Shown here: positions 1,442-18,484 of the stretch, in pieces
Numbering within the stretch: position 1 is the stretch's first letter
Layout of the letters: every line of letters starts with the position of its first letter
Origin: Synergistaceae bacterium
GTDB lineage: Bacteria; Synergistota; Synergistia; Synergistales; Aminobacteriaceae
NCBI GenBank assembly: GCA_017458545.1
Contig: JAFTBA010000278.1
Location: 1 to 24,625, forward strand
DNA: 24,625 nt
Reading direction: 5' to 3'
Position numbers and translations under genes: made by a program
The notes under the pieces: generated by a model
What the model saw: the letters and a program-made list of their open reading frames with translations, nothing else
Told to the model about the DNA's origin: nothing
The model's database searches: none

Positions 1442-1446
1442 TTAAC

Positions 1447-2406
1447 ATGATGAATGACGAGATTTTAAGAGTCGAGAACCTTCACATAACGTTCACTACT
1501 TCAGCAGGTGAAGTGAAAGCGTTGAACGGCGTATCGTTCGGAGTTAAACGCGGCGAAGTCTTAGGGATAGCAGGTGAGTCCGGAAGCGGTAAGAGTACTG
1601 CTATGCTCTCAGTAATGGGATTAACGGGTGAATACGGACATGTTCACGCTGACAAAATGACATTCATGGGTGAGGAGCTTACCCCCGAAAGAGTGAAAGT
1701 ACTTCGCGGAAAAAACATCTCAATGATATTCCAGGACCCTATGACCAGTCTTAACCCTGTGTTATCAGTAGGTTACCAGCTTGAAGAGGCGTTAAAGCGT
1801 CATCACTGGGAAGGCAGCATCAGGGAAAGAGTGATTGATATTTTGACGAAGGTCGGTATTGTTCCTGCCGAACAGAGAATGAGAGATTACCCTCACGAGT
1901 TCAGCGGAGGACAAAGACAGAGAATCATGACGGCCATGTCTATTGCCTGTAACCCTGAGCTGTTAATCGCCGATGAACCTACTACAGCACTCGATGTTAC
2001 GGTTCAGGCTCAAATCCTAAAGTTGTTACGAGAACTCCGCAGCTCTTCGGGAATGTCAATGATACTGATAACTCATGACTTGGGAGTCATAGCAGGTGAG
2101 GCTGACAGGGTCATAGTGATGTACGGAGGCAAAATAATGGAGGAAGGAACAGTGCGCGAAATCTTCAATGAGGCTCATCACCCTTACACTGTTGGACTGC
2201 TGCGTTCAGTTCCTAAAGCTGACGGTTCACACGAACGCTTAATCCCTATTGAGGGTCAGCCTCCGGATTTGCTTAACCCTCCGAAAGGCTGCCCGTTCGT
2301 TAAAAGATGTCCTAAAGCCATGAAAATTTGTCTCAGTCAACAGCCTGAACCCTCAACGCTCAGTGAGACTCATAAATATTCCTGCTGGTTAGGAGTGAAA
2401 AACTAA
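1447..2406 (+). CDS. oppD: Oligopeptide ABC ATP-binding protein OppD
   Basis: Walker A GESGSGKS, signature FSGGQ, Walker B LIADEPT, C-terminal Cys-rich oligo_HPY region. ATG 1447 preferred over GTG 1438 from spacing to AGGAAG. Confidence 0.92.
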   Translation: MMNDEILRVENLHITFTTSAGEVKALNGVSFGVKRGEVLGIAGESGSGKSTAMLSVMGLTGEYGHVHADKMTFMGEELTPERVKVLRGKNISMIFQDPMTSLNPVLSVGYQLEEALKRHHWEGSIRERVIDILTKVGIVPAEQRMRDYPHEFSGGQRQRIMTAMSIACNPELLIADEPTTALDVTVQAQILKLLRELRSSSGMSMILITHDLGVIAGEADRVIVMYGGKIMEEGTVREIFNEAHHPYTVGLLRSVPKADGSHERLIPIEGQPPDLLNPPKGCPFVKRCPKAMKICLSQQPEPSTLSETHKYSCWLGVKN

Positions 2407-5001: not shown

Positions 5002-5264
5002 TTGGAAGCTGAAAACGTAACGGATAAAAAGGGCTTTGAGTATTTTGCGTTCATAAGCTACAGCCATAAGGATATAAGGATATGGAATGGTATCAGAAAG
5101 CTGCTGCTCAAGGCTATGCCACTGCACAAAATAATATCGGTTATCTATACCTCAATGGTCTCGGTGTCCCCCAAAGCAAAGACAAAGCCATCGAGTACTT
5201 CACTAAAGCCGCCGAGCAAGGCCACAGGGGTGCCAAAACCGAACTGGAAAAGTTATCCCGTTAG
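5002..5264 (+). pseudogene. Remnant of a TIR-domain/Sel1-repeat gene: TIR first strand joined to terminal Sel1-repeat sequence, frameshifted by an 8-bp duplication
   Basis: 5002-5073 encodes ...EYFAFISYSHKD (TIR_2 beta-A motif). 5082-5264 encodes MEWYQKAAAQGYATAQNNIGYLYLNGLGVPQSKDKAIEYFTKAAEQG (Sel1 consensus). Removing one ATAAGGAT copy puts the two parts in frame. Confidence 0.75.
5066..5083 (+). repeat. Tandem 8-bp direct repeat (ATAAGGAT)x2 + AT
   Basis: Read directly: 5066-5073 and 5074-5081 are identical. Confidence 0.95.
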
Positions 5265-5271
5265 TATGCTA

Positions 5272-5299
5272 TGGACATTCGGGGCATTTCTGATAAAAT
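5272..5299 (+). promoter_or_regulatory. Candidate sigma70 promoter for the amino-acid ABC operon
   Basis: TGGACA (5272-5277), 16-nt spacer, TAAAAT (5294-5299) preceded by TG at 5291-5292 (extended -10), about 60 nt upstream of ATG 5362. Confidence 0.5.
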
Positions 5300-5361
5300 T
5301 TTCATGCACTTCAGCGTGTTAAAGCGTTGAAGAAATTTACTTGCAGGAGATGTTAATCCAA

Positions 5362-6129
5362 ATGAAGAAATTATTACTCGTCCTCGCCGTTGTTATGGCT
5401 TTGTGTTCGTGCGCTTTCGCTGAGACAGACTCCGAATACGTCAAGGCTAAAGGCGTTCTCGTCGTCGGCATCACTGACTTCAAGCCTATGGACTACAAAA
5501 ACGAAAAAGGCGAATGGATCGGTTTCGACGCTGATTTGGCTAAGGCTTTCGCTGAGAGTCTCGGCGTTAAAGTCGAGTTTCAGGAAATAGAATGGAACAA
5601 CAAAATTCTCGAACTCGACGGCAAAAATATCGACTGCGTTTGGAACGGTATGACCCTCACTCCCGAAGTCAAATCCGCAATGAGTACTTCTAACCCCTAC
5701 TGCAACAACGCTCAGATTGTCGTTGTCCCTGCCGGCAAAGCTGCTCAGTATGACACTCTAGAAGCCGTAAAAGACCTCACTTTCGCTGTCGAACACGGCA
5801 GTGCCGGTAACGAACAGGCTAAAGCTAACGGCCTCAAATGCGTTGAAGTTCAGGATCAGGCTTCGGCTTTAATGGAAGCTGCTTCAGGTACTGCTGACGG
5901 CGCAATCATAGACTCCCTCATGGCCGCAGCTATGGTCGGTAAAGGCACAGGCTACGAAAACCTCACTTACACCGTCGCACTCAACAGCGAGGAATACGGC
6001 GTTGGTTTCCGCAAAGGCTCGGATTTAACGTTCATGCTTAATGCGTTCTTCGAGACAGGCTACAATGACGGCAGTATCTCTAAACTTGCTGAGATTTACG
6101 GAATACAGGCCGCTTTAATCAAACAGTAA
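5362..6129 (+). CDS. Polar amino-acid ABC transporter substrate-binding protein (family 3)
   Basis: AGGAGA RBS then MKKLLLVLAVV signal peptide (so ATG 5362 rather than TTG 5341). VGITDFKPMDY, IGFDADLA, CVWNGMT, EEYGVGFRK. Confidence 0.9.
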   Translation: MKKLLLVLAVVMALCSCAFAETDSEYVKAKGVLVVGITDFKPMDYKNEKGEWIGFDADLAKAFAESLGVKVEFQEIEWNNKILELDGKNIDCVWNGMTLTPEVKSAMSTSNPYCNNAQIVVVPAGKAAQYDTLEAVKDLTFAVEHGSAGNEQAKANGLKCVEVQDQASALMEAASGTADGAIIDSLMAAAMVGKGTGYENLTYTVALNSEEYGVGFRKGSDLTFMLNAFFETGYNDGSISKLAEIYGIQAALIKQ

Positions 6130-6136
6130 CTTCAAC

Positions 6137-6823
6137 ATGGAAACTTTCATCGAACAGCTCCCGGTAGTAATCGGCGCATTAAATACGGGTTTCATTCAAA
6201 CTCTGAAACTCTTTTCGCTGACACTGCTGGGGGCTTTCCCTTTAGGGTTAATCATAGCGTTCGGCTCACTCTCCAAAATTAAAGCCATAAGCCTTACTAC
6301 ATCATTCATAATCTGGATAATCAGAGGCACTCCGTTAATGATTCAATTATTGATTGTCTACTATTTTCCGGGCTTAGTGCTTCACAATCCTATTTGGGGC
6401 GGTGGAGAGTCGGGAAGATTCTTAGCGGCAACGATTGCCTTCATCATTAATTATGCTTGCTACTTCTCTGAAATTTACAGGGGCGGTATTCAGAGCGTTC
6501 CAGTAGGACAAACTGAGGCAGGTTTAGTTTTGGGAATGACGAAGAGACAAATATTTTTTCACGTAACATTGCTGCAGATGATAAAGCGTATCGTTCCGCC
6601 TATCTCTAACGAAATCATAACGCTCGTTAAAGATACTGCACTCGCAAGAATAATTGCCCTTCAGGAAATCATTTGGGCAGGTCAGGCGTTCATGAAAGGT
6701 TCGCACGGTATATCAGGTGCTATTTGGCCGCTATTCTTCACGGCTGTGTATTACCTCGTGTTTAACGGTATCGTTACCGTACTGCTGGCTAAGTTTGAAC
6801 GCAGACTAAATTATTTCCGTTAA
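6137..6823 (+). CDS. Polar amino-acid ABC transporter permease (HisM/GlnP family)
   Basis: IRGTPLMIQL, YFSEIYRGGIQSVPVGQTEAGLVLGM, NEIITLVKDT. Confidence 0.92.
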   Translation: METFIEQLPVVIGALNTGFIQTLKLFSLTLLGAFPLGLIIAFGSLSKIKAISLTTSFIIWIIRGTPLMIQLLIVYYFPGLVLHNPIWGGGESGRFLAATIAFIINYACYFSEIYRGGIQSVPVGQTEAGLVLGMTKRQIFFHVTLLQMIKRIVPPISNEIITLVKDTALARIIALQEIIWAGQAFMKGSHGISGAIWPLFFTAVYYLVFNGIVTVLLAKFERRLNYFR

Positions 6824-7628: not shown

Positions 7629-7661
7629 AAGAGGCTTGCAGAAAATTGCAGGTCTCTTTTT
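7629..7661 (+). terminator. Intrinsic terminator between convergent operons (possibly bidirectional)
   Basis: AAGAGGCTTGCA-GAAAAT-TGCAGGTCTCTT forms a 12-bp stem with two G-U pairs and runs into a T tract. It sits between two convergent stop codons. Confidence 0.7.
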
Positions 7662-8370
7662 ATCTCGACGAATAACGTAAAGGTAATTCCAAACCGTTAG
7701 CCTCAAGCAGTGATTCATCAGTGAAAAGTTCAGGCAACAAACCCTCAGCTGACACTACACCCTCGTTGAGTATCACAGCCCGTTCGCAAACATCAACAGC
7801 CATATCCAAGTCATGAGTAGCAAGCAATATAGTTCTCTTTGTTCCACGCAGAAAATTTATTACCCTCCTTCGCGCTTTAGGGTCTAATCCTGCACTAGGC
7901 TCATCAAGTACTAAAAGATCTGGTTCGGACGCTAATACCCCTGCAAATGTTACTATCCTCTTCTCACCTCCTGAAAGCCTGTGAGCCAGTCTGTCGGCAA
8001 GATGTTCAATCCCTAAATCAGAAAGTATTTTTTGAGCATGTTCACGGGCTGATAATACATTCATTCCTGAAGCAACAAAGCTAAATGATACATCCTCAAT
8101 CACCGTTGGCATCAGTATCTCATCATCCGCATTCTGGAACGTTAAGCCTACATTTTCGCGCAAGACCTCAGAGCCTTCACGACCACCGAAAATTATTCTG
8201 CCCTCCTGTACCTCTACTGCTCCTGCAATGTGCAACAGCAGCGTCGATTTACCTGAACCGTTAGCTCCTACAAGCGCAGTTTTCTCACCGTCTTTAACTC
8301 TGAGATTAACTCCCCTTAATGCCTCATGGCCGTCAGGATATTTATAGTGCAGGTCGATTACTTCAAGCAT
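7660..8370 (-). CDS. cbiO: ECF-type Co/Ni transporter ATPase (CbiO/NikO)
   Basis: GANGSGKS, FQNADD, LSGGEKR, LDEPSAGLDP, ATHDLD; follows CbiQ/CbiM homologs. Confidence 0.88.
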   Translation of the reverse strand: MLEVIDLHYKYPDGHEALRGVNLRVKDGEKTALVGANGSGKSTLLLHIAGAVEVQEGRIIFGGREGSEVLRENVGLTFQNADDEILMPTVIEDVSFSFVASGMNVLSAREHAQKILSDLGIEHLADRLAHRLSGGEKRIVTFAGVLASEPDLLVLDEPSAGLDPKARRRVINFLRGTKRTILLATHDLDMAVDVCERAVILNEGVVSAEGLLPELFTDESLLEANGLELPLRYSSR

Positions 8371-9085
8371 TATTCAGCAACACTATTCCCAAAACGTAAA
8401 ACGCATATCCAGTCATCATAACTATATCCCTGAGATTAAAACCGTCATTTTCAGACTGCTTGAAACCTCCGAAACCTCCACGGCATTTAACCGCCCTCAT
8501 AATATTCTCTGAACGTTCAGATGTCTGAAGCAGTATGTTCCCAATCATATACGCAAAAACTTTAAGCCTCATCATTCCGCTAAGTTCAGGGGCTCTGAGC
8601 TTCACTGAAGTTATTGATGAACTGTAACGCTCACTCAAAGTGTAAATCCCTCTCAGTGTCAGTATCACTAGTACACGCAATTTCATCGGAACGTTCAGCA
8701 CACACAATGCCTCATACATTCCTGCAGTCCCTAAAGGATATATCATTACACCGAACGCAACACATATCATGTTCACTCTCAGTGCTATAACCGCTCCCAT
8801 AACAAGACCGTCAATAAATATCGGCCAAGTCATAGCAAGTGTAAAAATCATTATGATGTTGACGATGTTTATTTTGACGAGGTGAGACAGCTTAAACCGT
8901 TTCGTCAATATAAACGTCAGCGGCATTAATAACGCTGTAAACAGTGCTGCTATTGAAGTGCTTATTGAAACCGCCAGCGCATAACTCAATGCACTCACAA
9001 GTACAACGGCAGGTGAGTTAGAGTTGGTGCTGTTGATGACGAGGGATTGACGCGGAAATTCAAGGGTATATATTCCTTTTGTCAT
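8363..9085 (-). CDS. cbiQ: ECF transmembrane T component (CbiQ/NikQ), divergent
   Basis: Multi-TM N-terminal half, TLRG and KCRGGF Arg motifs of T components, position between cbiM and cbiO. Confidence 0.75.
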   Translation of the reverse strand: MTKGIYTLEFPRQSLVINSTNSNSPAVVLVSALSYALAVSISTSIAALFTALLMPLTFILTKRFKLSHLVKINIVNIIMIFTLAMTWPIFIDGLVMGAVIALRVNMICVAFGVMIYPLGTAGMYEALCVLNVPMKLRVLVILTLRGIYTLSERYSSSITSVKLRAPELSGMMRLKVFAYMIGNILLQTSERSENIMRAVKCRGGFGGFKQSENDGFNLRDIVMMTGYAFYVLGIVLLNNA

Positions 9086-9681
9086 GACAGAAATTCAGGA
9101 GCTGCTCTCTTCAGCCACATCACTAAAAACATTGTTACTGCTCCCTCAACTAATGCCAACGGTACGTGAGCTATCAGCAGAATTTTGACGGCTCCGATGA
9201 AATTTCTGTCGGTCATTCCCAAAAACGCTCCTGCTAATGACGCTCCTGCCATTACCGCAAATACCCCAGCAATAAACGACATAACCCTAACATGCGCCCG
9301 TCCTTTTCCCTCACGGATTGCTTTGCCGAAAATTACATGTGTCAGAAGCGCAGCTCCTCCCATCACAAAAGTGTTAGCTCCCAAAACTAACAATCCTCCG
9401 AAATGAAACAGCAATGCCTGAAGCATTAACGCAACAAGTACAGCAGGAAATACAGAATTACCCAGAATAATTCCCATTGGTGCAAGCAATGACAAATGAG
9501 TTGATGAAGGACCTATACGGACGTTCACCAGTGAGGCCAGGAAAAATGCTGACGAGATTAACGCGGTTCTCACGGTCTTGTCGGTGTCAGTGTGTTTAAG
9601 ACCGTAAGCAGTCCCTATAATAGTACCTGCCCAGCACGTAACAAGAACACTTCCCGATAATATCCCCTCACTGATGTGCAT
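9082..9681 (-). CDS. cbiM: ECF S component CbiM/NikM
   Basis: N-terminal MHISEG metal-binding motif, second His in SSTHL, HFGGLLVLGAN, about 6-7 TM segments. Confidence 0.9.
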   Translation of the reverse strand: MHISEGILSGSVLVTCWAGTIIGTAYGLKHTDTDKTVRTALISSAFFLASLVNVRIGPSSTHLSLLAPMGIILGNSVFPAVLVALMLQALLFHFGGLLVLGANTFVMGGAALLTHVIFGKAIREGKGRAHVRVMSFIAGVFAVMAGASLAGAFLGMTDRNFIGAVKILLIAHVPLALVEGAVTMFLVMWLKRAAPEFLS

Positions 9682-10132
9682 GGCGTTTCCTCATGATTAA
9701 CATTGAAATGTTGAAGATGATACTCACTCCGAGTAATGCCCTCACTAAAAGCTCAGTCCCTCCGTATAATCCAATCTCCTCATGTGAGAGGGCTTTGTCC
9801 TCGTCGTCAGCAGTAATCTCAATTTCGGCTGTACACTGATGACCCTCCTCATCACGTACGATTACGCGCCACGTCCCTGCAACGTCGGGTACAAACGCAA
9901 AACGTCCTACCTCATCCGTCCTCCCTGACTGAAACGCATACTTCTCATCTTTCGGCGAATACACTTTTGCTTCGCGGTAACTCATCTTCTCACCGGTCGA
10001 GTACATAAACTCAAGCGCAACAGCTCTCAGTTCTGAACGCCTGTAACCCGTACCGTGTGCAGAAAGTTTATCCGTTGAAAAAAGCATCAGGCTCACCGTT
10101 AAGGCAAGCCCGATGAAAATCTTTGACCTCAT
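9668..10132 (-). CDS. NikL/CbiL-like accessory Ni/Co uptake protein (signal peptide, beta domain, C-terminal anchor)
   Basis: LSA-HG predicted cleavage exposes His, QSGRTDEVGRFAFVPDVAGTWRV prealbumin-like fold motif, single C-terminal TM, operon context. Confidence 0.65.
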   Translation of the reverse strand: MRSKIFIGLALTVSLMLFSTDKLSAHGTGYRRSELRAVALEFMYSTGEKMSYREAKVYSPKDEKYAFQSGRTDEVGRFAFVPDVAGTWRVIVRDEEGHQCTAEIEITADDEDKALSHEEIGLYGGTELLVRALLGVSIIFNISMLIMRKRHAHQ

Positions 10133-10920
10133 TACTTCACCCTGAACAGTAAGAACGCCCTGAGATTAAGATTGTCATAATCCCCTTCGACTCCCGGTAA
10201 TCCCGCCTGAGCTGCCCTTATTCCCCAAAGTCCGGGCGCAGTGATTTTGATGTGTGCTTCGCCGTTCTCAGCCTCCGTGTAATAAGCGTAGGTGTTCTCG
10301 TACTCGGTAACAAATCCGTCATATGTTGCCCATACCGGCCCCGTGTAAGGCTGACCGTTAAGCAGTATTTTCACGTGGAAATACTCACCGACTTTAGCGT
10401 CAGCAGGGTTCGTAACAGGAATAACCTCCAACGGATGACCGAGTACCAGAGCAAAATTCTTATCGTCATGCGAGGTGTTGAATATTGCTTTCGCGTACTT
10501 GTCGTACTTGTTGGCAGATATTACCTTGAGACCCTGAGCTTCAAGGTCTTTCCTTGCGCCCGATTTACCGCCCTCATTGGTTACGCACCACGACTCGCCG
10601 TCCTTAGTCGCAACAAGTATCACTGACTTCGACAAATCTTTGGGAGTAACAACGAAATTAATGCAAAGCCCTTTTTCGTTTGCGACAAGCTCGGAGGGAA
10701 CAAATTTCCCGTCCTCAATGATTCCTGCTTTGACACGTTCGAGAATCTCTACCTCTTCGGGAACTATAAACCTGTGTGCTGACTGTACCGTCGCTACAAA
10801 TGGCTGTCCTTCCTTCATGGCTTCATTCTCGGCCTTGATTGTCAGTTCGTGTGCGAACGCAGGAAGTGATGAGAGCGTAAGCACTGTTACAAGTGCAGGG
10901 ATAAGAAAACGTTTCAACAT
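10132..10920 (-). CDS. DUF4198-family (NikK-like) periplasmic metal-uptake accessory protein
   Basis: Signal peptide AFA-HE, KYAKAI, GHPLEVIPVTNP, LLNGQP, GEAHIKITAPGLW; first gene of the cbiMQO cluster. Confidence 0.75.
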   Translation of the reverse strand: MLKRFLIPALVTVLTLSSLPAFAHELTIKAENEAMKEGQPFVATVQSAHRFIVPEEVEILERVKAGIIEDGKFVPSELVANEKGLCINFVVTPKDLSKSVILVATKDGESWCVTNEGGKSGARKDLEAQGLKVISANKYDKYAKAIFNTSHDDKNFALVLGHPLEVIPVTNPADAKVGEYFHVKILLNGQPYTGPVWATYDGFVTEYENTYAYYTEAENGEAHIKITAPGLWGIRAAQAGLPGVEGDYDNLNLRAFLLFRVK

Positions 10921-10983: not shown

Positions 10984-12099
10984 TTACTGTCTCATTACGC
11001 ACTCAGCCCAAAATTTTGCAGCGTTACAGTTTCCCATTGATGAACGCGCTTTCTCCAGTGCCGTATCAGTTTCGTTCTTAACTCTCTCATCGTTCAAGTA
11101 CCTTCCGAGTTCCTGAACAATTCGCTCTGGGGTTGCGTCATCGCATAACAGTTCGGGGTAAACCTGTTTATCCGTCAGCATGTTAGGTATTGAAATGTTG
11201 CTGACGTGAACAAGCCGTTTGAGTATCGCGTAGTTAAGTCGCTTCATGTTATAGATGACTACCATGTAACGCCTTAACAGCATCGCCTCAACAGCAACTG
11301 TTCCCGATACCCCTGCTGCAGCTAATGAACCCATCATCAATTCCCTTCCGCTTCCCTCCCAAAGCTCAAACCCCGACTCATTTACCCTCGTTCGCAGTTC
11401 ATCGGCAAGATCTTTACTCAAACCCTGAGCAACTGAGAACACAGGCAAATATCCTTCAGCCTTGAGCCTCTTGGCAGTTCCCAGCAGAATATCAAGGTGA
11501 AATTTTATGTCGTAACGTCTGCTTCCCGGCATGAGGGCTATAACTTTTTTGTTGACGAATCGGTTTCGGAACTCATCGGAGATTTTAACGCCCTCCAATT
11601 CGTGAACAAGAGGATGAGATTTCCAGAACGATTTAACCCCGTTTACCGTCAAAAATTCGTGTTCAAACAAAAATAACGGCAGACTAAAATCAAAATCCCT
11701 CTTCAAATTCTTCACCCTTCCTGAACGCCATGCCCATACTGTTGGAGGTATCAATGAAATTATCTTCCCCTTATACCCAGAACTCCTTAATGATTTCGCA
11801 AGCATTAAATGAAAATCAGGGCAGTCAGTCAACACTACTGCGTCAGGTTTTACCCTCATAATTTCACGCGTTATGTTACGTTTTAATCTCAGTATTCGGG
11901 GGATTGCAGGTATGATTTCAAGTATTCCCATCAGCTTTAACTCCTCGTAACTCCATACAGCTTTACCCCCTGAGTTAATGCTCTCAGTTCCCAACATACC
12001 CCAAATTTCTGTTGACGGGGCTATACTCAATATTTCACGGATTAAACTTCCTGCGTAAATATCTCCGCTCACTTCTCCGCATGACACAAATATATTCAT
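10984..12099 (-). CDS. lpxB: Lipid-A-disaccharide synthase
   Basis: CGEVSGD, TDCPDFHL, PPTVWAWRSGR, HPL, LMPGSR, SGTVAVEAML, ISIPNML. Confidence 0.93.
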   Translation of the reverse strand: MNIFVSCGEVSGDIYAGSLIREILSIAPSTEIWGMLGTESINSGGKAVWSYEELKLMGILEIIPAIPRILRLKRNITREIMRVKPDAVVLTDCPDFHLMLAKSLRSSGYKGKIISLIPPTVWAWRSGRVKNLKRDFDFSLPLFLFEHEFLTVNGVKSFWKSHPLVHELEGVKISDEFRNRFVNKKVIALMPGSRRYDIKFHLDILLGTAKRLKAEGYLPVFSVAQGLSKDLADELRTRVNESGFELWEGSGRELMMGSLAAAGVSGTVAVEAMLLRRYMVVIYNMKRLNYAILKRLVHVSNISIPNMLTDKQVYPELLCDDATPERIVQELGRYLNDERVKNETDTALEKARSSMGNCNAAKFWAECVMRQ

Positions 12100-13763
12100 G
12101 AGTTATATTTCTCCCTGTCAATCATATTCCCTCCGTCAGCAGCTATAACTGTACACGCTATATTTCCCATACAAGTTGTAGGTGTGTTGAACAGGTCTTC
12201 GAGTGCCTCAGTGCTTATCGCTATCCCAAGAAATTCAAGCGGACAACCTGTCTGCGTAAATAATGCTGACATTGATATTATCCCTGCTCCGGGTAACCCT
12301 GGTGTTGAAACCGTAAGCACTATTATTGAAAACGCAAGCGATATTAATGACGAAACTGACATTTCAACACCGTACATGTTCGCACCTGAAAGCGTTAAAA
12401 TCGCAAACGTTATCGGAAATCCTGCCTTGCATATTGACGTGGTTAATGGTATTGAAAGTGAGTAAACTTTCCGCGATATTCCCATATCCTCACAGCACTT
12501 CATACCGTCAGGGATTGCCGCTATGCTTGAACATGTACTGAATGCAGTTATTATCACCGGAAGGGATTTTCTCAGCATAACAAAAGGACTTAAACCGGTA
12601 CTCAGTTTCACTGCTATACACATAAAAATGTTCAGCAAAACATATGCAAAAATAAACGTCAGCAATATCCCAATTACTGACACTATAGTCTCAAGCCCTG
12701 TAGTTATTACCATTGAGGCTATAGAACAGAATATAGCCAGCGGAACTATCAGCATAAATATTCTCGTAGCCCTCATGAATACTGCTGTCAGTTCACCGAA
12801 AACATCCCGCAGAACTTTCGCTCCTGCTACGCCGACAGATATTCCGATAATTACTGCTATGACCATTATTTGAAGCATATCAGCCTCAAGCAGCGGTCTC
12901 ACTATATTCTCAGGAACTAAGTTCATCAGCATTCCAGTTAATGATAACGTTTCGGCCTGTACAGCCTCAACTGATGACGATGCAGTCAGTCTTACTCCTT
13001 TGCCTGTCCCGAATAAATATACAGATCCGAAAGCTATGGCAGTGCTTGCTGTCTGGAACAAAACTATATATTTCAATAGTCTTCCGCCCGATTTCTGAAG
13101 CCCTGAAGTACTGCCCATACCTGAAAGACAAGTTATTATCGAGAACAGCACTACAGGTACTGAACACATTTTCAGGCCGTTCATGAAGACAGTTCTGACA
13201 GGAGTGAATATATTATTGTTGACTGCCATGTAAACGTTCTCAGGGAAAAATTCCTTGAGTACTACTCCTGACACTACAGCAGCGAATAATATAGTCAATA
13301 TTTTGTACAGCCCTGAGTAATTCGAGAGCATAGCTTTGATGCGTACAGTATTAAACCTGCGGTAATGCTTATACCTCAGGTAACGGCTGAACGAACGAAG
13401 CAAAATACTTTGAACTGCTGCCTGTGTCTCTGACAGTTCATCATCATCATCATCAGCGTGATACTCGACTTCAGCGTTACCGTAAAAATCAAACTCATTA
13501 CCCGGTACTTTTATGTCAACGATTACATCTCCGAAAACTTTTCCGATGTTGACGACGAAATGTGACAGTTCCGAAAAATCTGCGTGTTTTAACAGCGTTG
13601 TCATTGTCTCCTCGCACATCAGCACGGCTCTGTCAGTGTCTTTAACGCTGAGTTTCATTTCGCCTAAACTCTCACGGATAAATCCGAGTGCTTCAGACAA
13701 TAATTTTTCAGTTTCAGCTTTAGTTCCGGTTCCGGTTCCAATAACCGTAAATTTTTTGAGCAT
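12096..13763 (-). CDS. DAACS (dicarboxylate/amino acid:cation symporter) family protein with N-terminal degenerate HATPase-like domain, paralog 2
   Basis: FMNGLKMCSVPVVLFSII, NLVPENI, HP1 AFSTCSSIAAIP, HP2 PGLPGAG. About 150-aa extra N-terminal domain. ATG 13763 (MLKKF) chosen because it aligns with the MQKKF start of the paralog. Confidence 0.85.
   Translation of the reverse strand: MLKKFTVIGTGTGTKAETEKLLSEALGFIRESLGEMKLSVKDTDRAVLMCEETMTTLLKHADFSELSHFVVNIGKVFGDVIVDIKVPGNEFDFYGNAEVEYHADDDDDELSETQAAVQSILLRSFSRYLRYKHYRRFNTVRIKAMLSNYSGLYKILTILFAAVVSGVVLKEFFPENVYMAVNNNIFTPVRTVFMNGLKMCSVPVVLFSIITCLSGMGSTSGLQKSGGRLLKYIVLFQTASTAIAFGSVYLFGTGKGVRLTASSSVEAVQAETLSLTGMLMNLVPENIVRPLLEADMLQIMVIAVIIGISVGVAGAKVLRDVFGELTAVFMRATRIFMLIVPLAIFCSIASMVITTGLETIVSVIGILLTFIFAYVLLNIFMCIAVKLSTGLSPFVMLRKSLPVIITAFSTCSSIAAIPDGMKCCEDMGISRKVYSLSIPLTTSICKAGFPITFAILTLSGANMYGVEMSVSSLISLAFSIIVLTVSTPGLPGAGIISMSALFTQTGCPLEFLGIAISTEALEDLFNTPTTCMGNIACTVIAADGGNMIDREKYNS
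13438..13455. repeat. (TCA)6 trinucleotide run encoding an acidic DDDDDE tract
   Basis: Six consecutive TCA on +; the minus strand reads gct gat gat gat gat gat gaa. Confidence 0.9.
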
Positions 13764-13784
13764 AATGAATAACAAACTCCTTTC

Positions 13785-15428
13785 TTAAGGACGGTTATAC
13801 TGTTCCCTGTCAATAAGATTACCGCTCGAAGCTGCCAGAAGTGTACAGACTATATGCCCCAGACATACAAGCACAGTCGCAGTAAAATCCGTCAATATAT
13901 CAATAGGTACTACTATTCCGATAAACTCAACAGGACATCCGAACTCACTGAAAAGTACTGACAGTGTTATCAGCCCCGCACCGAATATTGAAGGAGTTGC
14001 TATCGACATCAAAGACGACATTAATATAAGCATTATGATTGATACAGGAGGAATGTTAATACCGTAAAGATTTGACGCTGAAATCACTATCGTTACGTAA
14101 TACGCAGCACTGTATACCTTATTCACAGATGTTGCAAGAGGGATTGAAAATGAATACAATGAAGGTGAAATACCCATAGCAGCACAGCTCTTCAGGCCGT
14201 CAGGAATAGCAGCTGTACTTGTACATGTACTGAAAGCAGTTATCAGCATTGGCGCGGATTTCCTCAGCATTGTTAAGGGACTTAGTTTTGCTGAAAACTT
14301 CACCAGAAAACAGAGTGCTATCGCCGTTACTATATGCCCCCCAATAACTGTACATATTATGCCTGCCAATGATGACAAAGTTCCCGTTCCCGTTACAATA
14401 ATCATTGAGGCTGCGGAACAGAACATTACGGGGACAATAAATTTCAGGAAAAATCCCATTATCTTCATGAATATCATATCGACTTCGCCTGAAAATTTCC
14501 GTACACATTTAGCGTCCGTAACTGATACTGCAAATCCTGCCATGAACGCAAGCACAATTAACTGAAGCATATTGCCCTCAAGAAACGGCCTGAAAATATT
14601 TCCAGCAACTAAATCTGTAAACATACCGATTAATGATACTGACTTAACGTTAACCGTCTCTCCTGAAGTTAAAGGGATATTAACACCCGTGCCCGGCCTG
14701 AATATATATATTGAGCACAAGCCTACAATAAGTCCGATAATCTTGCATATCACGAAATACTTGAAGAGAGTTCCGCAAGTTTTCTTTATTCCCGAAAGCC
14801 CTCCCATATCTGCAACGCATGACATAACAGAGCAAAATACTATAGGAACTGCGCACATTCCGAGACCGTTAAGGAAAACAGTGCGTACAGGGACAAGTAT
14901 ATTATTGTTGACCGCCATGCAGACGCTCTCAGGAGCAAAAGACCTCAGCGCAAGGCCTGACGCTACTGCCAGGAACAATGCCGTCAATGTCCTGTACAGC
15001 CCCGAATAATAAGACTGCACAGCCTTTATGCTCACAGTGTTGAAATCCCCCGAATGCCTGTAGCTCATATAGTGTGTGAACGGACGAAGTACTAGACGAC
15101 GAATTGCCCCGTAAGAGTTCAGAATATCATCGTTACTCTTCAGCACGGAAACATCAGCAGGACTCAAAAATTCAAACTCATTGCCCGGTACTGCCAAATC
15201 AATAATCACATCACCGAAAACTTTTCGTATATTCACCCGTAAATACCCTGTTCCCGAAAAATCAGAATGGTTTATCAGGGTCAGTAACGTCTCTTCGCAC
15301 ATCAGTTCGGTACGGAGTGAGTCTTTCGTTTTCAGCTTCATTGCTCCGAGCTGTTCACGGATAAATCCGAGTGCCTCAGCCAATCCGCAGTCATCAGCTT
15401 TACCTGTAACATCAAATTTCTTCTGCAC
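13785..15428 (-). CDS. DAACS family protein with N-terminal degenerate HATPase-like domain, paralog 1
   Basis: FLNGLGMCAVPIVFCSV, GNIFRPFLEGNMLQLIV, HP1 AFSTCTSTAAIP, HP2 IFGAG. N-terminal domain closely matches that of 12096-13763. GTG start overlaps the lpxI 3' end. Confidence 0.85.
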   Translation of the reverse strand: MQKKFDVTGKADDCGLAEALGFIREQLGAMKLKTKDSLRTELMCEETLLTLINHSDFSGTGYLRVNIRKVFGDVIIDLAVPGNEFEFLSPADVSVLKSNDDILNSYGAIRRLVLRPFTHYMSYRHSGDFNTVSIKAVQSYYSGLYRTLTALFLAVASGLALRSFAPESVCMAVNNNILVPVRTVFLNGLGMCAVPIVFCSVMSCVADMGGLSGIKKTCGTLFKYFVICKIIGLIVGLCSIYIFRPGTGVNIPLTSGETVNVKSVSLIGMFTDLVAGNIFRPFLEGNMLQLIVLAFMAGFAVSVTDAKCVRKFSGEVDMIFMKIMGFFLKFIVPVMFCSAASMIIVTGTGTLSSLAGIICTVIGGHIVTAIALCFLVKFSAKLSPLTMLRKSAPMLITAFSTCTSTAAIPDGLKSCAAMGISPSLYSFSIPLATSVNKVYSAAYYVTIVISASNLYGINIPPVSIIMLILMSSLMSIATPSIFGAGLITLSVLFSEFGCPVEFIGIVVPIDILTDFTATVLVCLGHIVCTLLAASSGNLIDREQYNRP

Positions 15429-16230
15429 AGTTCACACCCCAAACTGCTATGTTATACTTGTCGGCAAGCTCAAAGAATTTTTCAGGCTCTAAAATTAATG
15501 TTTTACCTGCTTCTACTCCCAGACATGTTAATCCTGCTTTTCTCATGTTATCGAGCGTTACTGTTCCTACGGTAGGCAAATCGTACCTCATATCCTGAGT
15601 TGCTTTCATCATTTTAACGACAACTCCCCTGCCCGAAATTTCACCCGAACGCTCTATCATTTTGTCAGTACCTTCCATAGCCTCGACAGCAACTACTGCC
15701 CCGTCAGCAATACAAACAGCCTGACCGAATGAGCACGGCAAAGTTACCCTCAAAATTTCCCGGCCGTAAGCTATATCACTGAGTTCTTTTTCTGTCGGTG
15801 AACGGGATGATAATTTACCTGATGACGCTATAAATTCGGGGAGTATCTGCCAATAAGGTATTACCTGAATATTCTCGTCCTCGCAAGCCTTCACTACAGC
15901 CCCTAAAAGTGAATGGTCATCCCTCAAACTCCTGCGCAATACTGAGCGCGTCAGTCTGTCGAAAAGAAGAGGCAGGCAGTAAATCACCTTCTTAGGTATA
16001 CGTCCTGCCATTATTACTTTGTCAGCACCGAATGATTTTACTTCACGTATTCCGCGCCCTAAACTAGGCGTTCTCATTCGGATTAATTTTCCCTCATCCC
16101 CTGCAAACTGTCTCAAGGTTTCAGGGTCATCACGCAGGGCTAATATGAGTGTTGACGGCTGAAGGCTCATCAGTTTACGCGCGATCTCAACAGGTAATAT
16201 CCCTTCACCGGCTACAAGTGCTATGCTCAA
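15412..16230 (-). CDS. lpxI: UDP-2,3-diacylglucosamine diphosphatase LpxI
   Basis: VAGEGILP, GQAV, AVEAMEGTD, VKMMKATQDMRYDLPTVG; near lpxB. Confidence 0.9.
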   Translation of the reverse strand: MSIALVAGEGILPVEIARKLMSLQPSTLILALRDDPETLRQFAGDEGKLIRMRTPSLGRGIREVKSFGADKVIMAGRIPKKVIYCLPLLFDRLTRSVLRRSLRDDHSLLGAVVKACEDENIQVIPYWQILPEFIASSGKLSSRSPTEKELSDIAYGREILRVTLPCSFGQAVCIADGAVVAVEAMEGTDKMIERSGEISGRGVVVKMMKATQDMRYDLPTVGTVTLDNMRKAGLTCLGVEAGKTLILEPEKFFELADKYNIAVWGVNCAEEI

Positions 16231-17333
16231 ATCCTGTCGACCCTCCGCGCGAAATACAATGCTGCGAACAGGAACACTATGTTAGGTCCCCATCCTGCTA
16301 TGAACGGAGGTAATGACCCTGCTTCGCCCAAAGCCCTGCACAATGACATGACGACATAGTAAGCAAACACTATAACTACGCTTATGCCGAAACCTACACC
16401 TCCACCTGACCTGCCTTTTCTCGAAGCACCGAATGACGCTCCTAATACTGCCATGATTACGCACGCCCAAGGGATAGCGGTCTTCAAATGGAACATAACC
16501 CAGAGTTCGGACAACTGAGAGTCTATAGCTTCGCCCTGTTTAATGTAACTCCATAATTCATGCGCACTCATATCGGCAGGTCTTCTGGTACTCCTCTGCA
16601 GCTGTTCAGGGGAAAGCCTTAATGCTAACATCTGACGCTCGAACCTCAGCAGTAAATTCACTTCACCTTCAGCATTAACGTCATACATTCTGCCGTCCTC
16701 TATCCACCATTGGGAGTTCTGCCACATTCCGCGCCTTGCGTTGAGAGTGTGAGAGAGTCTGCCTTCATTGTCGAACTCGTGCATCATTATTCCCCTGAGT
16801 ATTCCTTTGTCGGGGTCAAGCTCATCAATGTAGAGTACACGTTTCAGTTTTCCGCCCTCTTCATCGCGCAGGAACACTTTTTCCTGAATGACTGATGCCT
16901 GATTCTTCATTATCTCGAACTTCATCAGCCTGTCAGCAGCTATTGCCCCGAAAGGCACAACAGTCTCATTAAGGCCGAACCCTATGAGTGAAATCAGGAT
17001 TGACGCGAAGAATACGGGTCTTAATATTCTGGTGAAAGGTATTCCCAATGACCTGAGCGCGATTAATTCGCTTGCGCCGTTAAGGGTTGACATTCCGAGA
17101 AGTGTTGAGAGCAATGAGGACATAGGTATAGTCATCACTACGACTTCAGGCAGACGGTAGAAGAACAGTCTGGTTACCACTCCGAACGCAACGCCCTGTT
17201 CAATGATTAACTTGGCCGCCTGGAACAGCAAATCACCTGCAACAAATATCAATACGAAAATTAATATCCCGAACATGAACGGCCCAGCACATGCACCGAG
17301 TATTAATTTGTTTAATAGGCTTCTTCTAATCAT
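16227..17333 (-). CDS. lptF: LPS export ABC permease, LptF/LptG (YjgP/YjgQ) family
   Basis: RLPEVVVMTIPMSSLL, SELIALRSLGI, periplasmic beta-jellyroll (ARRGMW, WWIEDG), GFGISVVIVFAYY, AGWGPN. Cannot distinguish LptF from LptG. Confidence 0.88.
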   Translation of the reverse strand: MIRRSLLNKLILGACAGPFMFGILIFVLIFVAGDLLFQAAKLIIEQGVAFGVVTRLFFYRLPEVVVMTIPMSSLLSTLLGMSTLNGASELIALRSLGIPFTRILRPVFFASILISLIGFGLNETVVPFGAIAADRLMKFEIMKNQASVIQEKVFLRDEEGGKLKRVLYIDELDPDKGILRGIMMHEFDNEGRLSHTLNARRGMWQNSQWWIEDGRMYDVNAEGEVNLLLRFERQMLALRLSPEQLQRSTRRPADMSAHELWSYIKQGEAIDSQLSELWVMFHLKTAIPWACVIMAVLGASFGASRKGRSGGGVGFGISVVIVFAYYVVMSLCRALGEAGSLPPFIAGWGPNIVFLFAALYFARRVDRI

Positions 17334-18484
17334 TGTGTTAAGGCTGTCGCAGAATATTTGCGTGTCATCTGGTTAGTGAGTTTGTCAACAAGCTCCTGAG
17401 CCGTAGGAAGATTAGTACCCCCCTCGTAAGTCTCGCTGACATTCAGAACAGTTACATGAAGGAACTCTTCAAACGTTGCGCATAATGAGTTGACAATTAG
17501 CGTAAGCCTTTCGATTATGCCGTCAACCATCTGATAAGGGCATTCCGAGAGTACACCGATAATCTGAAACTCTCCTGCCTGTATAACCGTATCGGTCTGC
17601 CTTATATCTTTCCTTACGCTCTCACAGTAAGCCCTGAAAGGTCTGACATATCTGCCCATGTCATCATCGGGCAGCAGTTGAGGGAATACAAGCCTTATCA
17701 TGAACGCGCTCACAGGATGGTTATATCTTCCTGCCCTGTATAACTCATCGGCAATCCTCGCCATTCCGTAACGGTATGAATGAAGCTGCGTATCAGGATC
17801 TGTGAACTCAGCTGCTTCACTGTTACCGGCTCTTGAAGTTGCCTCAGCATTCTCTATAGGCAGTCCTTTGGGGTTAAGCTCGAAATAGAATCTTTTCCCG
17901 TCAGCTATACTCTTGCGTTCAATGTCCCAGATTTTACCGTTAATTTCAGCAGTTGTTGATACGGGACTGAACCAGTCGCTTATATTTTTGCCGACAGAGT
18001 CCATTCTTGAAATGTCGAGAACATCAAGCATGTTTTCAGTGAGATTCATTATTGCCCCTGTGTTGTCGGTAATTACGAAGTTTAACGGTAACTGTTTAAC
18101 GTCATCGGCAATTTCAACGGGGACAATTTTATTGCGTTCGTTCTCTTCCTGATTGTAAGCGACCAGTAAGGCAGCAGCACCGCATACGGCAATTATCACG
18201 CCGAGCCACTGAAACATTCTTGCTCCGTAAGTGATGGCCATAGGGCATAACAGTACACCCTGAGCCAATGCCTGAAGCGATATTAACCCTACATTGAAAC
18301 CGTGAATGATAAACAGGCCGTAGAGAATGCTCATGATGATGAACAGCAGCCATACTAATCCCCATACGGCCAAGTCAACTTCACCGACAACGCTGCCCGT
18401 ACCCATTGCGCGCGCAAGCATTATGGTTAAGATTGCTACAACGGGAGGGATAGTTATCCATTTGAGAAAGTTGTTCTGTCCCAT
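17330..18484 (-). CDS. Membrane protein with 4 TM, PAS-like domain and degenerate GGDEF domain retaining RxxD
   Basis: Four hydrophobic segments (aa ~9-110). PAS-like LPLNFVITDNTGAI...VGKNISDWF. GGDEF-like start TDPDTQLHS...ELYRAGRYNHPVSAFMI, then IRQTDTVIQAGEFQ. Confidence 0.72.
   Translation of the reverse strand: MGQNNFLKWITIPPVVAILTIMLARAMGTGSVVGEVDLAVWGLVWLLFIIMSILYGLFIIHGFNVGLISLQALAQGVLLCPMAITYGARMFQWLGVIIAVCGAAALLVAYNQEENERNKIVPVEIADDVKQLPLNFVITDNTGAIMNLTENMLDVLDISRMDSVGKNISDWFSPVSTTAEINGKIWDIERKSIADGKRFYFELNPKGLPIENAEATSRAGNSEAAEFTDPDTQLHSYRYGMARIADELYRAGRYNHPVSAFMIRLVFPQLLPDDDMGRYVRPFRAYCESVRKDIRQTDTVIQAGEFQIIGVLSECPYQMVDGIIERLTLIVNSLCATFEEFLHVTVLNVSETYEGGTNLPTAQELVDKLTNQMTRKYSATALTQ

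What the first reader, a model, noticed from the sequence alone, without database searches (positions are those of the whole stretch)
12160..14330. Na+ and substrate sites rewritten in both DAACS paralogs, with a shared Met-to-Lys at the NMDGT position
Seen, aligned by eye to GltPh. TM7 NMDGT (310-314) reads CKAGF in paralog 2 (Lys codon 12426-12428) and NKVYS in paralog 1 (Lys codon 14118-14120). TM8 D390/D394/R397/T398/N401/D405 reads E/D/N/T/T/N and D/D/A/T/V/H. D394, T398 and the Ser/Thr-rich HP1 are kept, while R397, N401, D405 and D312 are lost in both. Established: R397 binds the acidic side chain of the substrate; D405, N310/D312 and M311 shape the Na+ sites. In other folds a basic side chain substitutes for Na+ (ApcT Lys158, CaiT Arg262). 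Inference: these are not Na+/aspartate symporters. The Lys kept in both divergent copies may plug a cation site, giving an Na+-independent exchanger or facilitator for neutral solutes, or a non-transporting sensor.
Basis: partly seen in the sequence, partly recalled or inferred. Interest (0 to 1): 0.75.

Follow-up and report, generated by a model that had tools for sequence, protein, structure and literature searches.

The report
Glutamate-transporter homologues with built-in lysine
Two neighbouring genes of a ruminant-gut Synergistaceae bacterium encode glutamate-transporter-fold carriers in which every sodium-binding side chain is replaced and an invariant lysine sits where a sodium ion normally binds, so they probably work without sodium, an uncharacterised natural variant of a very well-studied transporter family.

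Summary
NMDGT reads CKAGF in paralog 2 and NKVYS in paralog 1. R397, N401 and D405 are lost, while D394, T398 and HP1/HP2 are kept.

New here:
- The Lys is fixed (43 K + 2 R of 45) in a well-supported Synergistaceae clade.
- That clade is nested in a larger family of ~545-aa DAACS proteins with an N-terminal dead RsbW-like GHKL domain. The other members of that family keep the full Na+ signature.
- With M311K, all the Na+ ligands changed: Y89F, T92 to hydrophobic, S93 to Q/N/H, and D312, N401 and D405 lost.
- Both genes are under purifying selection (dN/dS 0.12-0.25). They fold confidently as GltPh, with TM7 unwound at CKAG.
- An unrelated, widespread DAACS family (motif FKxNR) acquired K311 independently.
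- In GltTk the Met sulfur lies <3 Å from Na2, so a Lys amine can reach that site.

Best reading: Na+-independent carriers with a tethered cation. Whether they are H+-coupled, exchangers or uniporters is unresolved, and the substrate is unknown.

The position between lpxI and lpxB is a lineage-specific insertion, not a core LPS function.

This scan has noted similar Lys-bearing DAACS proteins and GHKL-DAACS fusions on other DNA before.

The parts
13785..15428 (-). Paralog 1 CDS (547 aa, GTG start overlapping the lpxI 3' end by 17 nt): RsbW-like N-domain + DAACS/SDF transporter, K311 type
12096..13763 (-). Paralog 2 CDS (555 aa from ATG 13763; an upstream in-frame TTG at 13775 is too close to the AAGGAG); its stop overlaps the lpxB start (ATGA)
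   Evidence: P0003 (99% identical) starts MLKKF
15015..15428 (-). Paralog 1 N-terminal cytoplasmic domain (~138 aa): degenerate RsbW/SpoIIAB-like GHKL fold
13326..13763 (-). Paralog 2 N-terminal domain (~146 aa), same fold; model pLDDT 87.8
14109..14123 (-). Paralog 1 NMDGT-equivalent NKVYS; Lys codon AAG at 14118-14120
12417..12431 (-). Paralog 2 NMDGT-equivalent CKAGF; Lys codon AAG at 12426-12428; predicted non-helical break in TM7
13854..13901 (-). Paralog 1 TM8 motif; D390/D394/R397/T398/N401/D405 read D/D/A/T/V/H
12162..12209 (-). Paralog 2 TM8 motif; the same positions read E/D/N/T/T/N
14742..14747 (-). Paralog 1 TM3 positions equivalent to T92-S93 (Na3 ligands): C-K
13053..13058 (-). 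Paralog 2 TM3 positions equivalent to T92-S93: F-Q (Gln is the clade consensus at S93)
12282..12305 (-). Paralog 2 HP2 tip TPGLPGAG (conserved gate; supplies main-chain Na2 ligands in GltPh/GltTk)
12516..12533 (-). Paralog 2 HP1 tip CSSIAA (Ser-rich hairpin kept; S277 in 44/45, S278 in 35/45 of the clade)
15412..16230 (-). lpxI (upstream neighbour, same strand)
10984..12099 (-). lpxB (downstream neighbour, same strand)

Best explanation
Both genes encode functional elevator-type carriers of the DAACS/SLC1 fold. They belong to a Synergistaceae-restricted clade that has given up Na+ coupling.

In this clade all side-chain ligands of the three GltPh-type Na+ sites have been replaced. M311 of the NMDGT loop has become an invariant Lys.

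The most likely mechanism, which is inferred, is as follows. The Lys ε-ammonium acts as a tethered cation that swings to the Na2 position between the TM7 break and the HP2 tip. There it is bound by main-chain carbonyls and lets the HP2 gate close on substrate without Na+. Asn at 405 and Gln/Asn/His at 93 fill or neutralise the former Na1 and Na3 sites.

Transport is therefore Na+-independent. It could be H+-coupled through Lys (de)protonation, or it could be exchange or uniport.

The conserved D394, T398 and Ser-rich HP1 suggest an amino-acid-like substrate with a free amino group that is not aspartate or glutamate. The substrate probably differs between the two paralogs. It is unknown.

The N-terminal dead RsbW-like domain is a cytoplasmic regulatory or interaction module inherited from the wider family. 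It is not specific to the Lys variant.
For: Shown here:
- The register is confirmed by three methods.
- The K/R311 clade has 43 rows with SH-aLRT 99. It is nested inside the N-domain+SDF family, whose other members keep NMDG.
- 45 K-clade sequences were compared with 38 M-type sequences. M311K has JSD 1.0. S93 becomes Q/N/H (JSD 0.98). T92 becomes hydrophobic. Y89 becomes F. D312 becomes N/A/I. D405 becomes N/T/S. N310, G313 and N401 become variable.
- The M-type proteins keep N310 38/38, M311 38/38, G313 38/38, T92 36/38, N401 36/38 and D405 36/38.
- In the K-clade these are kept: S277 44/45, D394 41/45, T398 38/45, HP2 P356 35/45 and G357 39/45.
- Pocket positions vary between paralogs while K311 does not. 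R397 is A/N/D/G/I and T314 is F/S/T/N/G. This fits a mechanistic role rather than a specificity role for the Lys.
- dN/dS is 0.12-0.25.
- The full-length model has pLDDT 87.8, with TM7 broken exactly at CKAG. It matches GltPh at TM 0.85-0.89 and rmsd 2.2-2.9 Å.
- K311 arose independently in the FKxNR DAACS family (111 K + 1 R of 112), again with T92/S93 and D312 lost. That family is a separate clade at 100 support.

From the literature:
- In GltTk the sulfur of M314 (= GltPh M311) is <3 Å from Na2. It lies at the centre of the Asp/Na1/Na2 triangle, and Na2 is otherwise bound only by main-chain carbonyls (PMC5110648).
- D405N lets GltPh open HP2 and bind Asp without Na+, and S93 and M311 interact sterically (PMC9171649).
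- Hydrophobic-92 and N405 are signatures of non-Na+ (H+) coupling (PMC12668577).

Weak evidence: contigs from three RNA libraries, with 0-4 mismatches, lie on both paralogs.
Against: - There is no functional data and no atomic coordinates, so the position of the Lys amine is inferred from the literature and not measured.
- Both acidic residues that could pair with a buried ammonium (D312, D405) are lost. The amine would therefore have to be stabilised by carbonyls, Gln/Asn or the substrate.
- The Lys could instead be a substrate ligand.
- Reddy et al. show that Na+ independence can arise without changing any site residue (AncInt). Site residues alone are therefore imperfect predictors of coupling.
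- Copies are frameshifted or stop-interrupted in two related species, so the genes are dispensable.
- The RNA evidence is weak, because DNA carry-over cannot be excluded.
Confidence: 0.55

Rival explanations
1. The Lys is mainly a substrate ligand. With R397 and often N401 gone, the K311 amine binds a carboxylate or other anionic group of the substrate. Loss of the Na+ sites is then a separate event.
For: M311 lines the substrate pocket, at the centre of the Asp/Na1/Na2 triangle (PMC5110648). R397 is absent and N401 is variable in the clade. The convergent FKxNR family combines K311 with R314 and K397, a strongly basic pocket that suggests anion binding.
Against: K311 stays invariant while the other pocket residues vary widely, including Asp at 397 in 6 of 45 clade members. 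The strongest covariation is with S93 in the Na3 region, not with pocket residues.
Confidence: 0.2
2. The proteins are still Na+-coupled (for example 1 Na+ at the main-chain-only Na2 site), as SstT is despite lacking NMDG.
For: The Na2 ligands are main-chain atoms, and HP2 is conserved (PMC5110648). The same genome's SstT-like DAACS also lacks NMDG, reading HLCGS.
Against: A Lys at the residue whose sulfur touches Na2 would compete sterically and electrostatically with Na+. All Na1 and Na3 side-chain ligands are gone. D405N alone uncouples GltPh (PMC9171649).
Confidence: 0.08
3. The proteins are non-transporting sensors (transceptors). Ligand binding to a crippled carrier is relayed by the N-terminal pseudokinase domain to a partner, such as a STAS or partner-switching protein.
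For: The N-domain has the RsbW/SpoIIAB/UsfX fold, TM 0.6-0.7. The genome encodes a stand-alone STAS protein and an RsbW-like protein. The canonical coupling sites are lost.
Against: The same N-domain is present on NMDG-type members with intact sites, so it does not mark loss of transport. HP1, HP2 and the scaffold are conserved and modelled confidently. No partner-switching genes lie next to any of the sampled loci.
Confidence: 0.1
4. The pair has a dedicated role in lipid A/LPS biogenesis, because it sits, translationally coupled, between lpxI and lpxB.
For: The order lptG-lpxI-DAACS(1-3 copies)-lpxB, with overlapping stop and start codons, is seen in about 12 species of the genus.
Against: Other species of the same genus, and another genus, have lptG-lpxI-lpxB directly adjacent. 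Clade members also sit at unrelated loci next to LysR, GntR, TctA, DcuC and Fe-ADH genes. Copies are broken in G017 and G111. LpxK is present elsewhere in the genome. dS is lower than in the flanking genes, which suggests a separately exchanged cassette.
Confidence: 0.05
5. The genes are decaying relics whose motifs are randomly degraded.
For: Orthologs diverge faster than the neighbouring genes (38-75% identity against 70-90%). Two species carry broken copies.
Against: dN/dS is 0.12-0.25. The frames are intact. The Lys is invariant and the hairpins are conserved over more than 1 substitution per site. The fold is confident.
Confidence: 0.02

Closest known systems
GltPh / GltTk (archaeal Na+:aspartate symporters, DAACS/SLC1, PF00375)
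   Same: Full-length PF00375 match. Same 8-TM + HP1/HP2 elevator fold (TM 0.85-0.89). Unwound TM7. D394, T398 and the Ser-rich HP1 and HP2 tip are kept.
   Different: All Na1 and Na3 side-chain ligands and R397 are replaced. M311 is Lys. There is an extra ~140-aa N-terminal GHKL-like domain.
H+-coupled GltP/GltT-type clade and the uncoupled ancestor AncInt (PDB 9BGY/9BGZ/9BH0; PMC12668577)
   Same: AncInt is the best PDB sequence match (E 1e-42 to 5e-44). Hydrophobic residue 92 and Asn405 are shared with the H+-coupling signature. Na+ independence within this fold is established.
   Different: The H+ clade has L311, not K311, and keeps N310, D312 and R397. AncInt keeps all site residues. Here the sites are dismantled and a basic residue is added.
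ApcT Lys158 / CaiT Arg262
   Same: The concept is the same: a basic side chain occupies the place of a coupling Na+ (Na2), giving Na+-independent transport. In ApcT this transport is H+-coupled.
   Different: The fold is unrelated (rocking bundle against elevator). No experimental data exist for the present proteins.
SstT / ASCT-type neutral amino-acid DAACS members
   Same: R397 is lost and the substrate is not an acidic amino acid. SstT also lacks a canonical NMDG; the same genome's copy reads HLCGS.
   Different: They have no Lys at position 311 and they keep D405 (GD). NCBIfam SstT scores are far below cut-off (83 and 42 bits against a cut-off of 308).
Uncharacterised 'FKxNR' DAACS family (~435 aa; Acidobacteriota, Bacteroidota, Planctomycetota and other MAGs)
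   Same: Lys at M311 (111 of 112), with T92/S93 hydrophobic and D312 hydrophobic. D394, T398 and N401 are kept.
   Different: Independent origin (separate clade, 100 support). No N-domain. N310 is F, T314 is R, R397 is K. D405 is kept in 80 of 112.
RsbW / SpoIIAB / UsfX anti-sigma factor kinases (GHKL, PF13581), for the N-domain only
   Same: Same α/β Bergerat-type fold by Foldseek (probability 1.0, TM 0.6-0.7).
   Different: No Pfam hit even at E 10. The N-box Asn is replaced by T/S/L, G1 DxGxG reads VPGxEF, and there is no G2 box (read by eye). It is probably not an ATPase or kinase.

Membership tests
DAACS / SDF (PF00375) | Significant full-length match to the family profile | tested here: met
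   243 and 228 bits against a cut-off of 27.9, covering profile positions 3-385 of 387
DAACS / SDF (PF00375) | GltPh-type fold with HP1, HP2 and an unwound TM7 | tested here: met
   AF2 model pLDDT 87.8. DSSP shows breaks at CSSIAA, CKAG and TPGLPG. Foldseek against GltPh gives TMt 0.85-0.89
Na+-coupled glutamate/aspartate transporters (GltPh/EAAT type) | NMDGT motif (N310, M311, D312) | tested here: not met
   CKAGF and NKVYS
Na+-coupled glutamate/aspartate transporters (GltPh/EAAT type) | Na1 and Na3 side-chain ligands [S/T]92-93 and [D/E]405 (signature in PMC12668577) | tested here: not met
   F-Q and C-K at 92-93; N and H at 405
Na+-coupled glutamate/aspartate transporters (GltPh/EAAT type) | R397 binding the substrate side-chain carboxylate | tested here: not met
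   N (paralog 2) and A (paralog 1); clade A/N/D/G/I
Na+-coupled glutamate/aspartate transporters (GltPh/EAAT type) | Na+-dependent substrate transport | not testable with these tools
   Needs proteoliposome or binding assays
H+-coupled GltP/GltT-type clade | Signature of hydrophobic-92, L311 and N405, with R397 kept (PMC12668577) | tested here: not met
   Hydrophobic-92 and N405 (paralog 2) fit, but 311 is K and R397 is lost. NCBIfam GltP scores 108 and 85 bits against a cut-off of 638
SstT (serine/threonine transporter) | NCBIfam equivalog score | tested here: not met
   83 and 42 bits against a cut-off of 308
RsbW-like anti-sigma kinases (HATPase_c_2, PF13581), N-domain | Bergerat/GHKL fold | tested here: met
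   Foldseek PDB top hits are UsfX, SpoIIAB and RsbW. AFDB and Atlas agree
RsbW-like anti-sigma kinases (HATPase_c_2, PF13581), N-domain | Profile match and ATP-binding N, G1 and G2 boxes | tested here: not met
   No Pfam hit at E<=10. Not found by a six-frame PF13581 search of the genome. Motifs read by eye from A1
Raetz-pathway / LPS operon component | Co-occurrence with lpx genes wherever the pathway is present | tested here: not met
   lptG-lpxI-lpxB are contiguous, without the insert, in 4 species of the same genus and in another genus

The most novel reading that the evidence does not exclude
Replacing the NMDGT methionine by lysine is a general, repeatedly evolved route by which SLC1-fold elevator transporters abandon Na+. 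The tethered ammonium takes the Na2 place at the HP2 gate, and the Na1 and Na3 sites are then dismantled. It evolved at least twice: in the Synergistaceae GHKL-fused clade and in the widespread FKxNR family. It may make the carriers proton-coupled through the Lys. This would be the elevator-fold counterpart of ApcT Lys158.
Probability: 0.4. Interest if true: 0.75.

Novelty: new variant of a known kind. Interest (0 to 1): 0.6.

Why it matters
Glutamate-transporter homologues are the reference system for how ion binding is coupled allosterically to substrate binding and gate closure. M311 is the central coupling residue in that system.

This is a natural clade in which that residue is an invariant Lys and all Na+ ligands have been lost in a coordinated way. 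Sister proteins that still carry the full Na+ signature are available for comparison. An independent lineage reached the same solution.

Together these give a ready-made evolutionary experiment on how ion coupling is lost or switched in an elevator transporter. The experiment is directly testable with K-to-M swaps and Na+/pH dependence. It also warns that the database label 'dicarboxylate/amino acid:cation symporter' is probably wrong for these proteins.

Tried and rejected
1. LpxK replacement by the GHKL-like domain. Rejected: LpxK (PF02606, 269 bits) is present in the genome.
2. Core LPS role. Rejected as the main reading: relatives lack the insert.
3. HMMER's pairwise register in TM3 (T92 to T, S93 to A, with a 2-residue gap). 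Rejected in favour of the gap-free MAFFT and hhalign register, S93 to Q.
4. The search for related loci with the N-domain alignment.
5. Biopython cal_dn_ds. Timed out and was replaced by my own Nei-Gojobori script.
6. Literature searches for a described Lys at the NMDGT Met, or for a Na+-independent DAACS of this type. Nothing was found. One query was malformed.
7. RNA evidence. Only short contigs from three metatranscriptome libraries lie on the genes. This is a weak hint, not proof of transcription, and says nothing about co-transcription with the lpx genes.
8. Partner-switching neighbours of paralogs elsewhere in the genus. None was found in 10 flanking ORFs.
9. The distance from the Lys amine to the Na sites in the model. 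Not possible, because the tool returns no coordinates.
Full report
**What is there**

The region holds two tandem genes on the minus strand. Paralog 1 is 13785-15428 (547 aa). Paralog 2 is 12096-13763/13775 (555/559 aa). The ATG at 13763 follows an AAGGAG by 13 nt and matches the start of a 99% identical database protein, so it is the likely start of paralog 2.

Both proteins match Pfam SDF (PF00375) over the whole profile, with E 7e-72 and 2e-67. They fall far below the NCBIfam cut-offs for GltP, DctA and SstT. Each has about 140 extra N-terminal residues with no Pfam hit.

The genes lie on the same strand between lpxI (15412-16230) and lpxB (10984-12099), with overlapping stop and start codons. 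lptG and further genes lie upstream.

**Check of the observation**

These relatives are the reconstructed uncoupled aspartate transporter 9BGY/9BGZ and GltTk.
- NMDGT reads CKAGF in paralog 2 and NKVYS in paralog 1.
- D390/D394/R397/T398/N401/D405 read E/D/N/T/T/N and D/D/A/T/V/H.

A profile-profile alignment of 29 clade members against 23 NMDG-bearing relatives gives the same columns. The Lys codons are AAG at 12426-12428 and 14118-14120, as stated.

**Who else has it**

Homologs of 39-99% identity, all about 545 aa, come from Synergistaceae metagenome bins of ruminant guts. In 151 genomes sampled across the phylum, full-length matches occur only in the window's own genus, in about 15 of 26 species.

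A profile of the N-domain finds 1,563 cluster representatives (283 at E<=1e-10). The full-length ones are nearly all 530-560 aa, so the N-domain + SDF fusion is a sizeable family. Of 67 full-length members examined, 39 have Met, 19 have Lys and 6 have Leu at position 311.

On a maximum-likelihood tree the Lys/Arg proteins form one clade of 43 rows (SH-aLRT 99). Three more K proteins sit in the sister group. The clade is nested among NMDG-type fused proteins. Paralogs 1 and 2 are sister subclades inside it, so the shared Lys predates their duplication.

**Coordinated rewriting**

I compared 45 K-clade proteins with 38 Met-type fused proteins.

The most discriminating columns are:
- M311 to K (43 K, 2 R)
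- S93 to Q/N/H
- D405 to N/T/S
- D312 to N/A/I
- Y89 to F
- T92 to hydrophobic

N310, G313 and N401 become variable.

The Met-type proteins keep the complete Na+ signature: N310 38/38, M311 38/38, G313 38/38, T92 36/38, N401 36/38 and D405 36/38.

In the K-clade the following stay conserved: the HP1 serines (S277 44/45), D394 (41/45), T398 (38/45) and the HP2 tip (P356 35/45, G357 39/45). The Lys is one of only 15 invariant columns out of 555 in the clade alignment.

Pocket positions that set specificity in known members vary between paralogs. R397 is A/N/D/G/I and T314 is F/S/T/N/G.

**Are the genes alive?**

For pairs with unsaturated dS, dN/dS is 0.18-0.25. Over all pairs it is 0.09-0.25. 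This is purifying selection, somewhat weaker than for lpxB, lpxI and lptG.

An AlphaFold model built with 54 homologs has pLDDT 87.8. It shows TM7 broken exactly at C-K-A-G and loops at the HP1 and HP2 tips. It superposes on inward-facing GltPh with TM 0.85-0.89 and rmsd 2.2-2.9 Å.

Short contigs from three sheep or gut metatranscriptome libraries, with 0-4 mismatches, lie on both genes. This is only a weak hint of expression. Copies in two related species are frameshifted or carry stop codons, so the genes are dispensable there.

**Mechanism**

Published structures of GltTk place the sulfur of the equivalent Met within 3 Å of Na2. [quoted passage not shown] Na2 is otherwise bound only by main-chain carbonyls of HP2 and TM7, and its binding closes the gate (PMC5110648).

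A Lys side chain extends two atoms beyond the position of the Met sulfur. Its amine can therefore reach the Na2 position, and the carbonyl ligands do not depend on sequence.

In GltPh, D405N opens HP2 and allows aspartate binding without Na+. S93 and M311 are steric partners in the Na+-driven switch (PMC9171649). A hydrophobic residue at 92 and Asn405 are signatures of non-Na+ coupling (PMC12668577).

Taken together, the most likely reading is a Na+-independent carrier in which Lys311 is a tethered cation at the gate. Residues 93 and 405 would fill the former Na3 and Na1 sites. This step is inferred, because no coordinates or assays were available.

The coupling mode cannot be told. H+ coupling through the Lys, exchange and uniport all remain possible. 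The substrate is unknown. The conserved D394 suggests a solute with an amino group. The lack of R397 excludes an aspartate/glutamate-type pocket.

**Convergence**

A weak hit of the first search, P0054 (440 aa, no N-domain), also had Lys at 311. Its family has 333 proteins at E<=1e-30, from Acidobacteriota, Bacteroidota, Planctomycetota and other bins. NMDGT reads F-K-x-N-R in it (K 111/112), T92/S93 are Met/Leu-Leu, D312 is hydrophobic and R397 is Lys.

This family forms a separate clade (support 100), with NMDG-bearing proteins lying between it and the fused family. No NCBIfam equivalog or solved structure covers it. M311K with loss of the Na3 site therefore evolved at least twice.

An earlier report of this scan on other DNA reached a similar conclusion for a Vampirovibrio-type protein. 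I did not test whether that protein belongs to the FKxNR family.

**N-terminal domain**

The domain model (pLDDT 87.8) matches the anti-sigma kinases UsfX, SpoIIAB and RsbW, with probability 1.0 and TM 0.6-0.7.

By eye, the Mg-binding Asn of the N box is T/S/L, the G1 box reads VPGxEF and no G2 box is present. No HATPase profile matches. The domain is probably a dead kinase used for regulation or protein interaction.

It occurs on Met-type members too, so it is not tied to the Lys variant. Similar fusions to SDF in Bacillota, and to MFS transporters, exist. The genome has a stand-alone STAS protein and an RsbW-like protein, but none lies next to any locus examined.

**Genomic context**

The order lptG-lpxI-[1-3 DAACS copies]-lpxB is seen in about 12 species of the genus. 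Four other species of the genus, and another genus, have lpxI directly followed by lpxB.

The copies at the lpx locus belong to several different subclades. Other clade members sit next to LysR or GntR regulators and to TctA, DcuC or Fe-ADH genes.

Synonymous divergence of the DAACS genes is lower than that of the flanking genes between the same genomes. For G015 against G016 it is 0.18-0.36, compared with 0.80-0.98 for the flanks. This hints at lateral exchange of the cassette.

The array is therefore an accessory insertion into the operon, not a core LPS component.

**Verdict**

The Lys-as-cation idea is plausible. It is strengthened by covariation, by convergence and by published geometry, but it remains untested.

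I found no paper describing a DAACS member with Lys at this position. I classify this as a new variant of a known kind, of good interest to transporter specialists.

Noticed in passing
P0054 and P0261-P0379; no window coordinates: A large uncharacterised DAACS family of ~435 aa (Acidobacteriota, Bacteroidota, Planctomycetota, Gemmatimonadota bins). NMDGT reads F-K-x-N-R, R397 is Lys and T92/S93 are Met/Leu-Leu. Its origin of K311 is independent, and its pocket is very basic.
   Followed up: partly
window 12096-15428 versus 10984-12099 and 15412-17333; L009, L010, L012: Between the same genome pairs, synonymous divergence of the two DAACS genes is 2-5 times lower than that of the flanking lpxB, lpxI and lptG. 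Their GC3 is also slightly lower (0.39-0.41 against 0.40-0.52). This suggests the cassette was exchanged between species more recently than its flanks.
   Followed up: partly
L019 (G017:C17) 5012-6680; L026 (G111:C34) 5091-6762; L012 6695-8017: The lpxI-lpxB insert varies from 1 to 3 copies between species. It is frameshifted in one species, carries 3 TGA + 2 TAA stops in another, and one copy is truncated (440 aa).
   Followed up: partly
window 17330-18484 (-): A 384-aa ORF between the DUF4139 gene and lptG has no Pfam hit at E<=0.001, although it is 70-84% conserved in relatives. It sits where lptF might be expected. Another first-reader note calls it a degenerate GGDEF protein.
   Followed up: no
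L034 (G000:C356) 1333-2322 (-): The LpxK match lies in a 739-aa open frame, so LpxK may be fused to another domain in this genome.
   Followed up: no
P0098, P0050: Two further fused-family proteins outside the main clade also carry Lys at 311 (HKDGS with T-K at 92-93 and D405 kept; FKPAS). These are possible additional independent origins.
   Followed up: no
ESM Atlas row 8: A cluster of 70 proteins fuses an HATPase_c_2 (RsbW-like) domain to an MFS transporter. Anti-sigma-kinase-like domains on transporters therefore recur across transporter folds.
   Followed up: no
window 7660-10920 (-): Downstream of lpxB lies a DUF4198-CbiM-CbiQ-ABC ATPase cluster (ECF-type metal uptake). It is syntenic in all relatives examined.
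   Followed up: no
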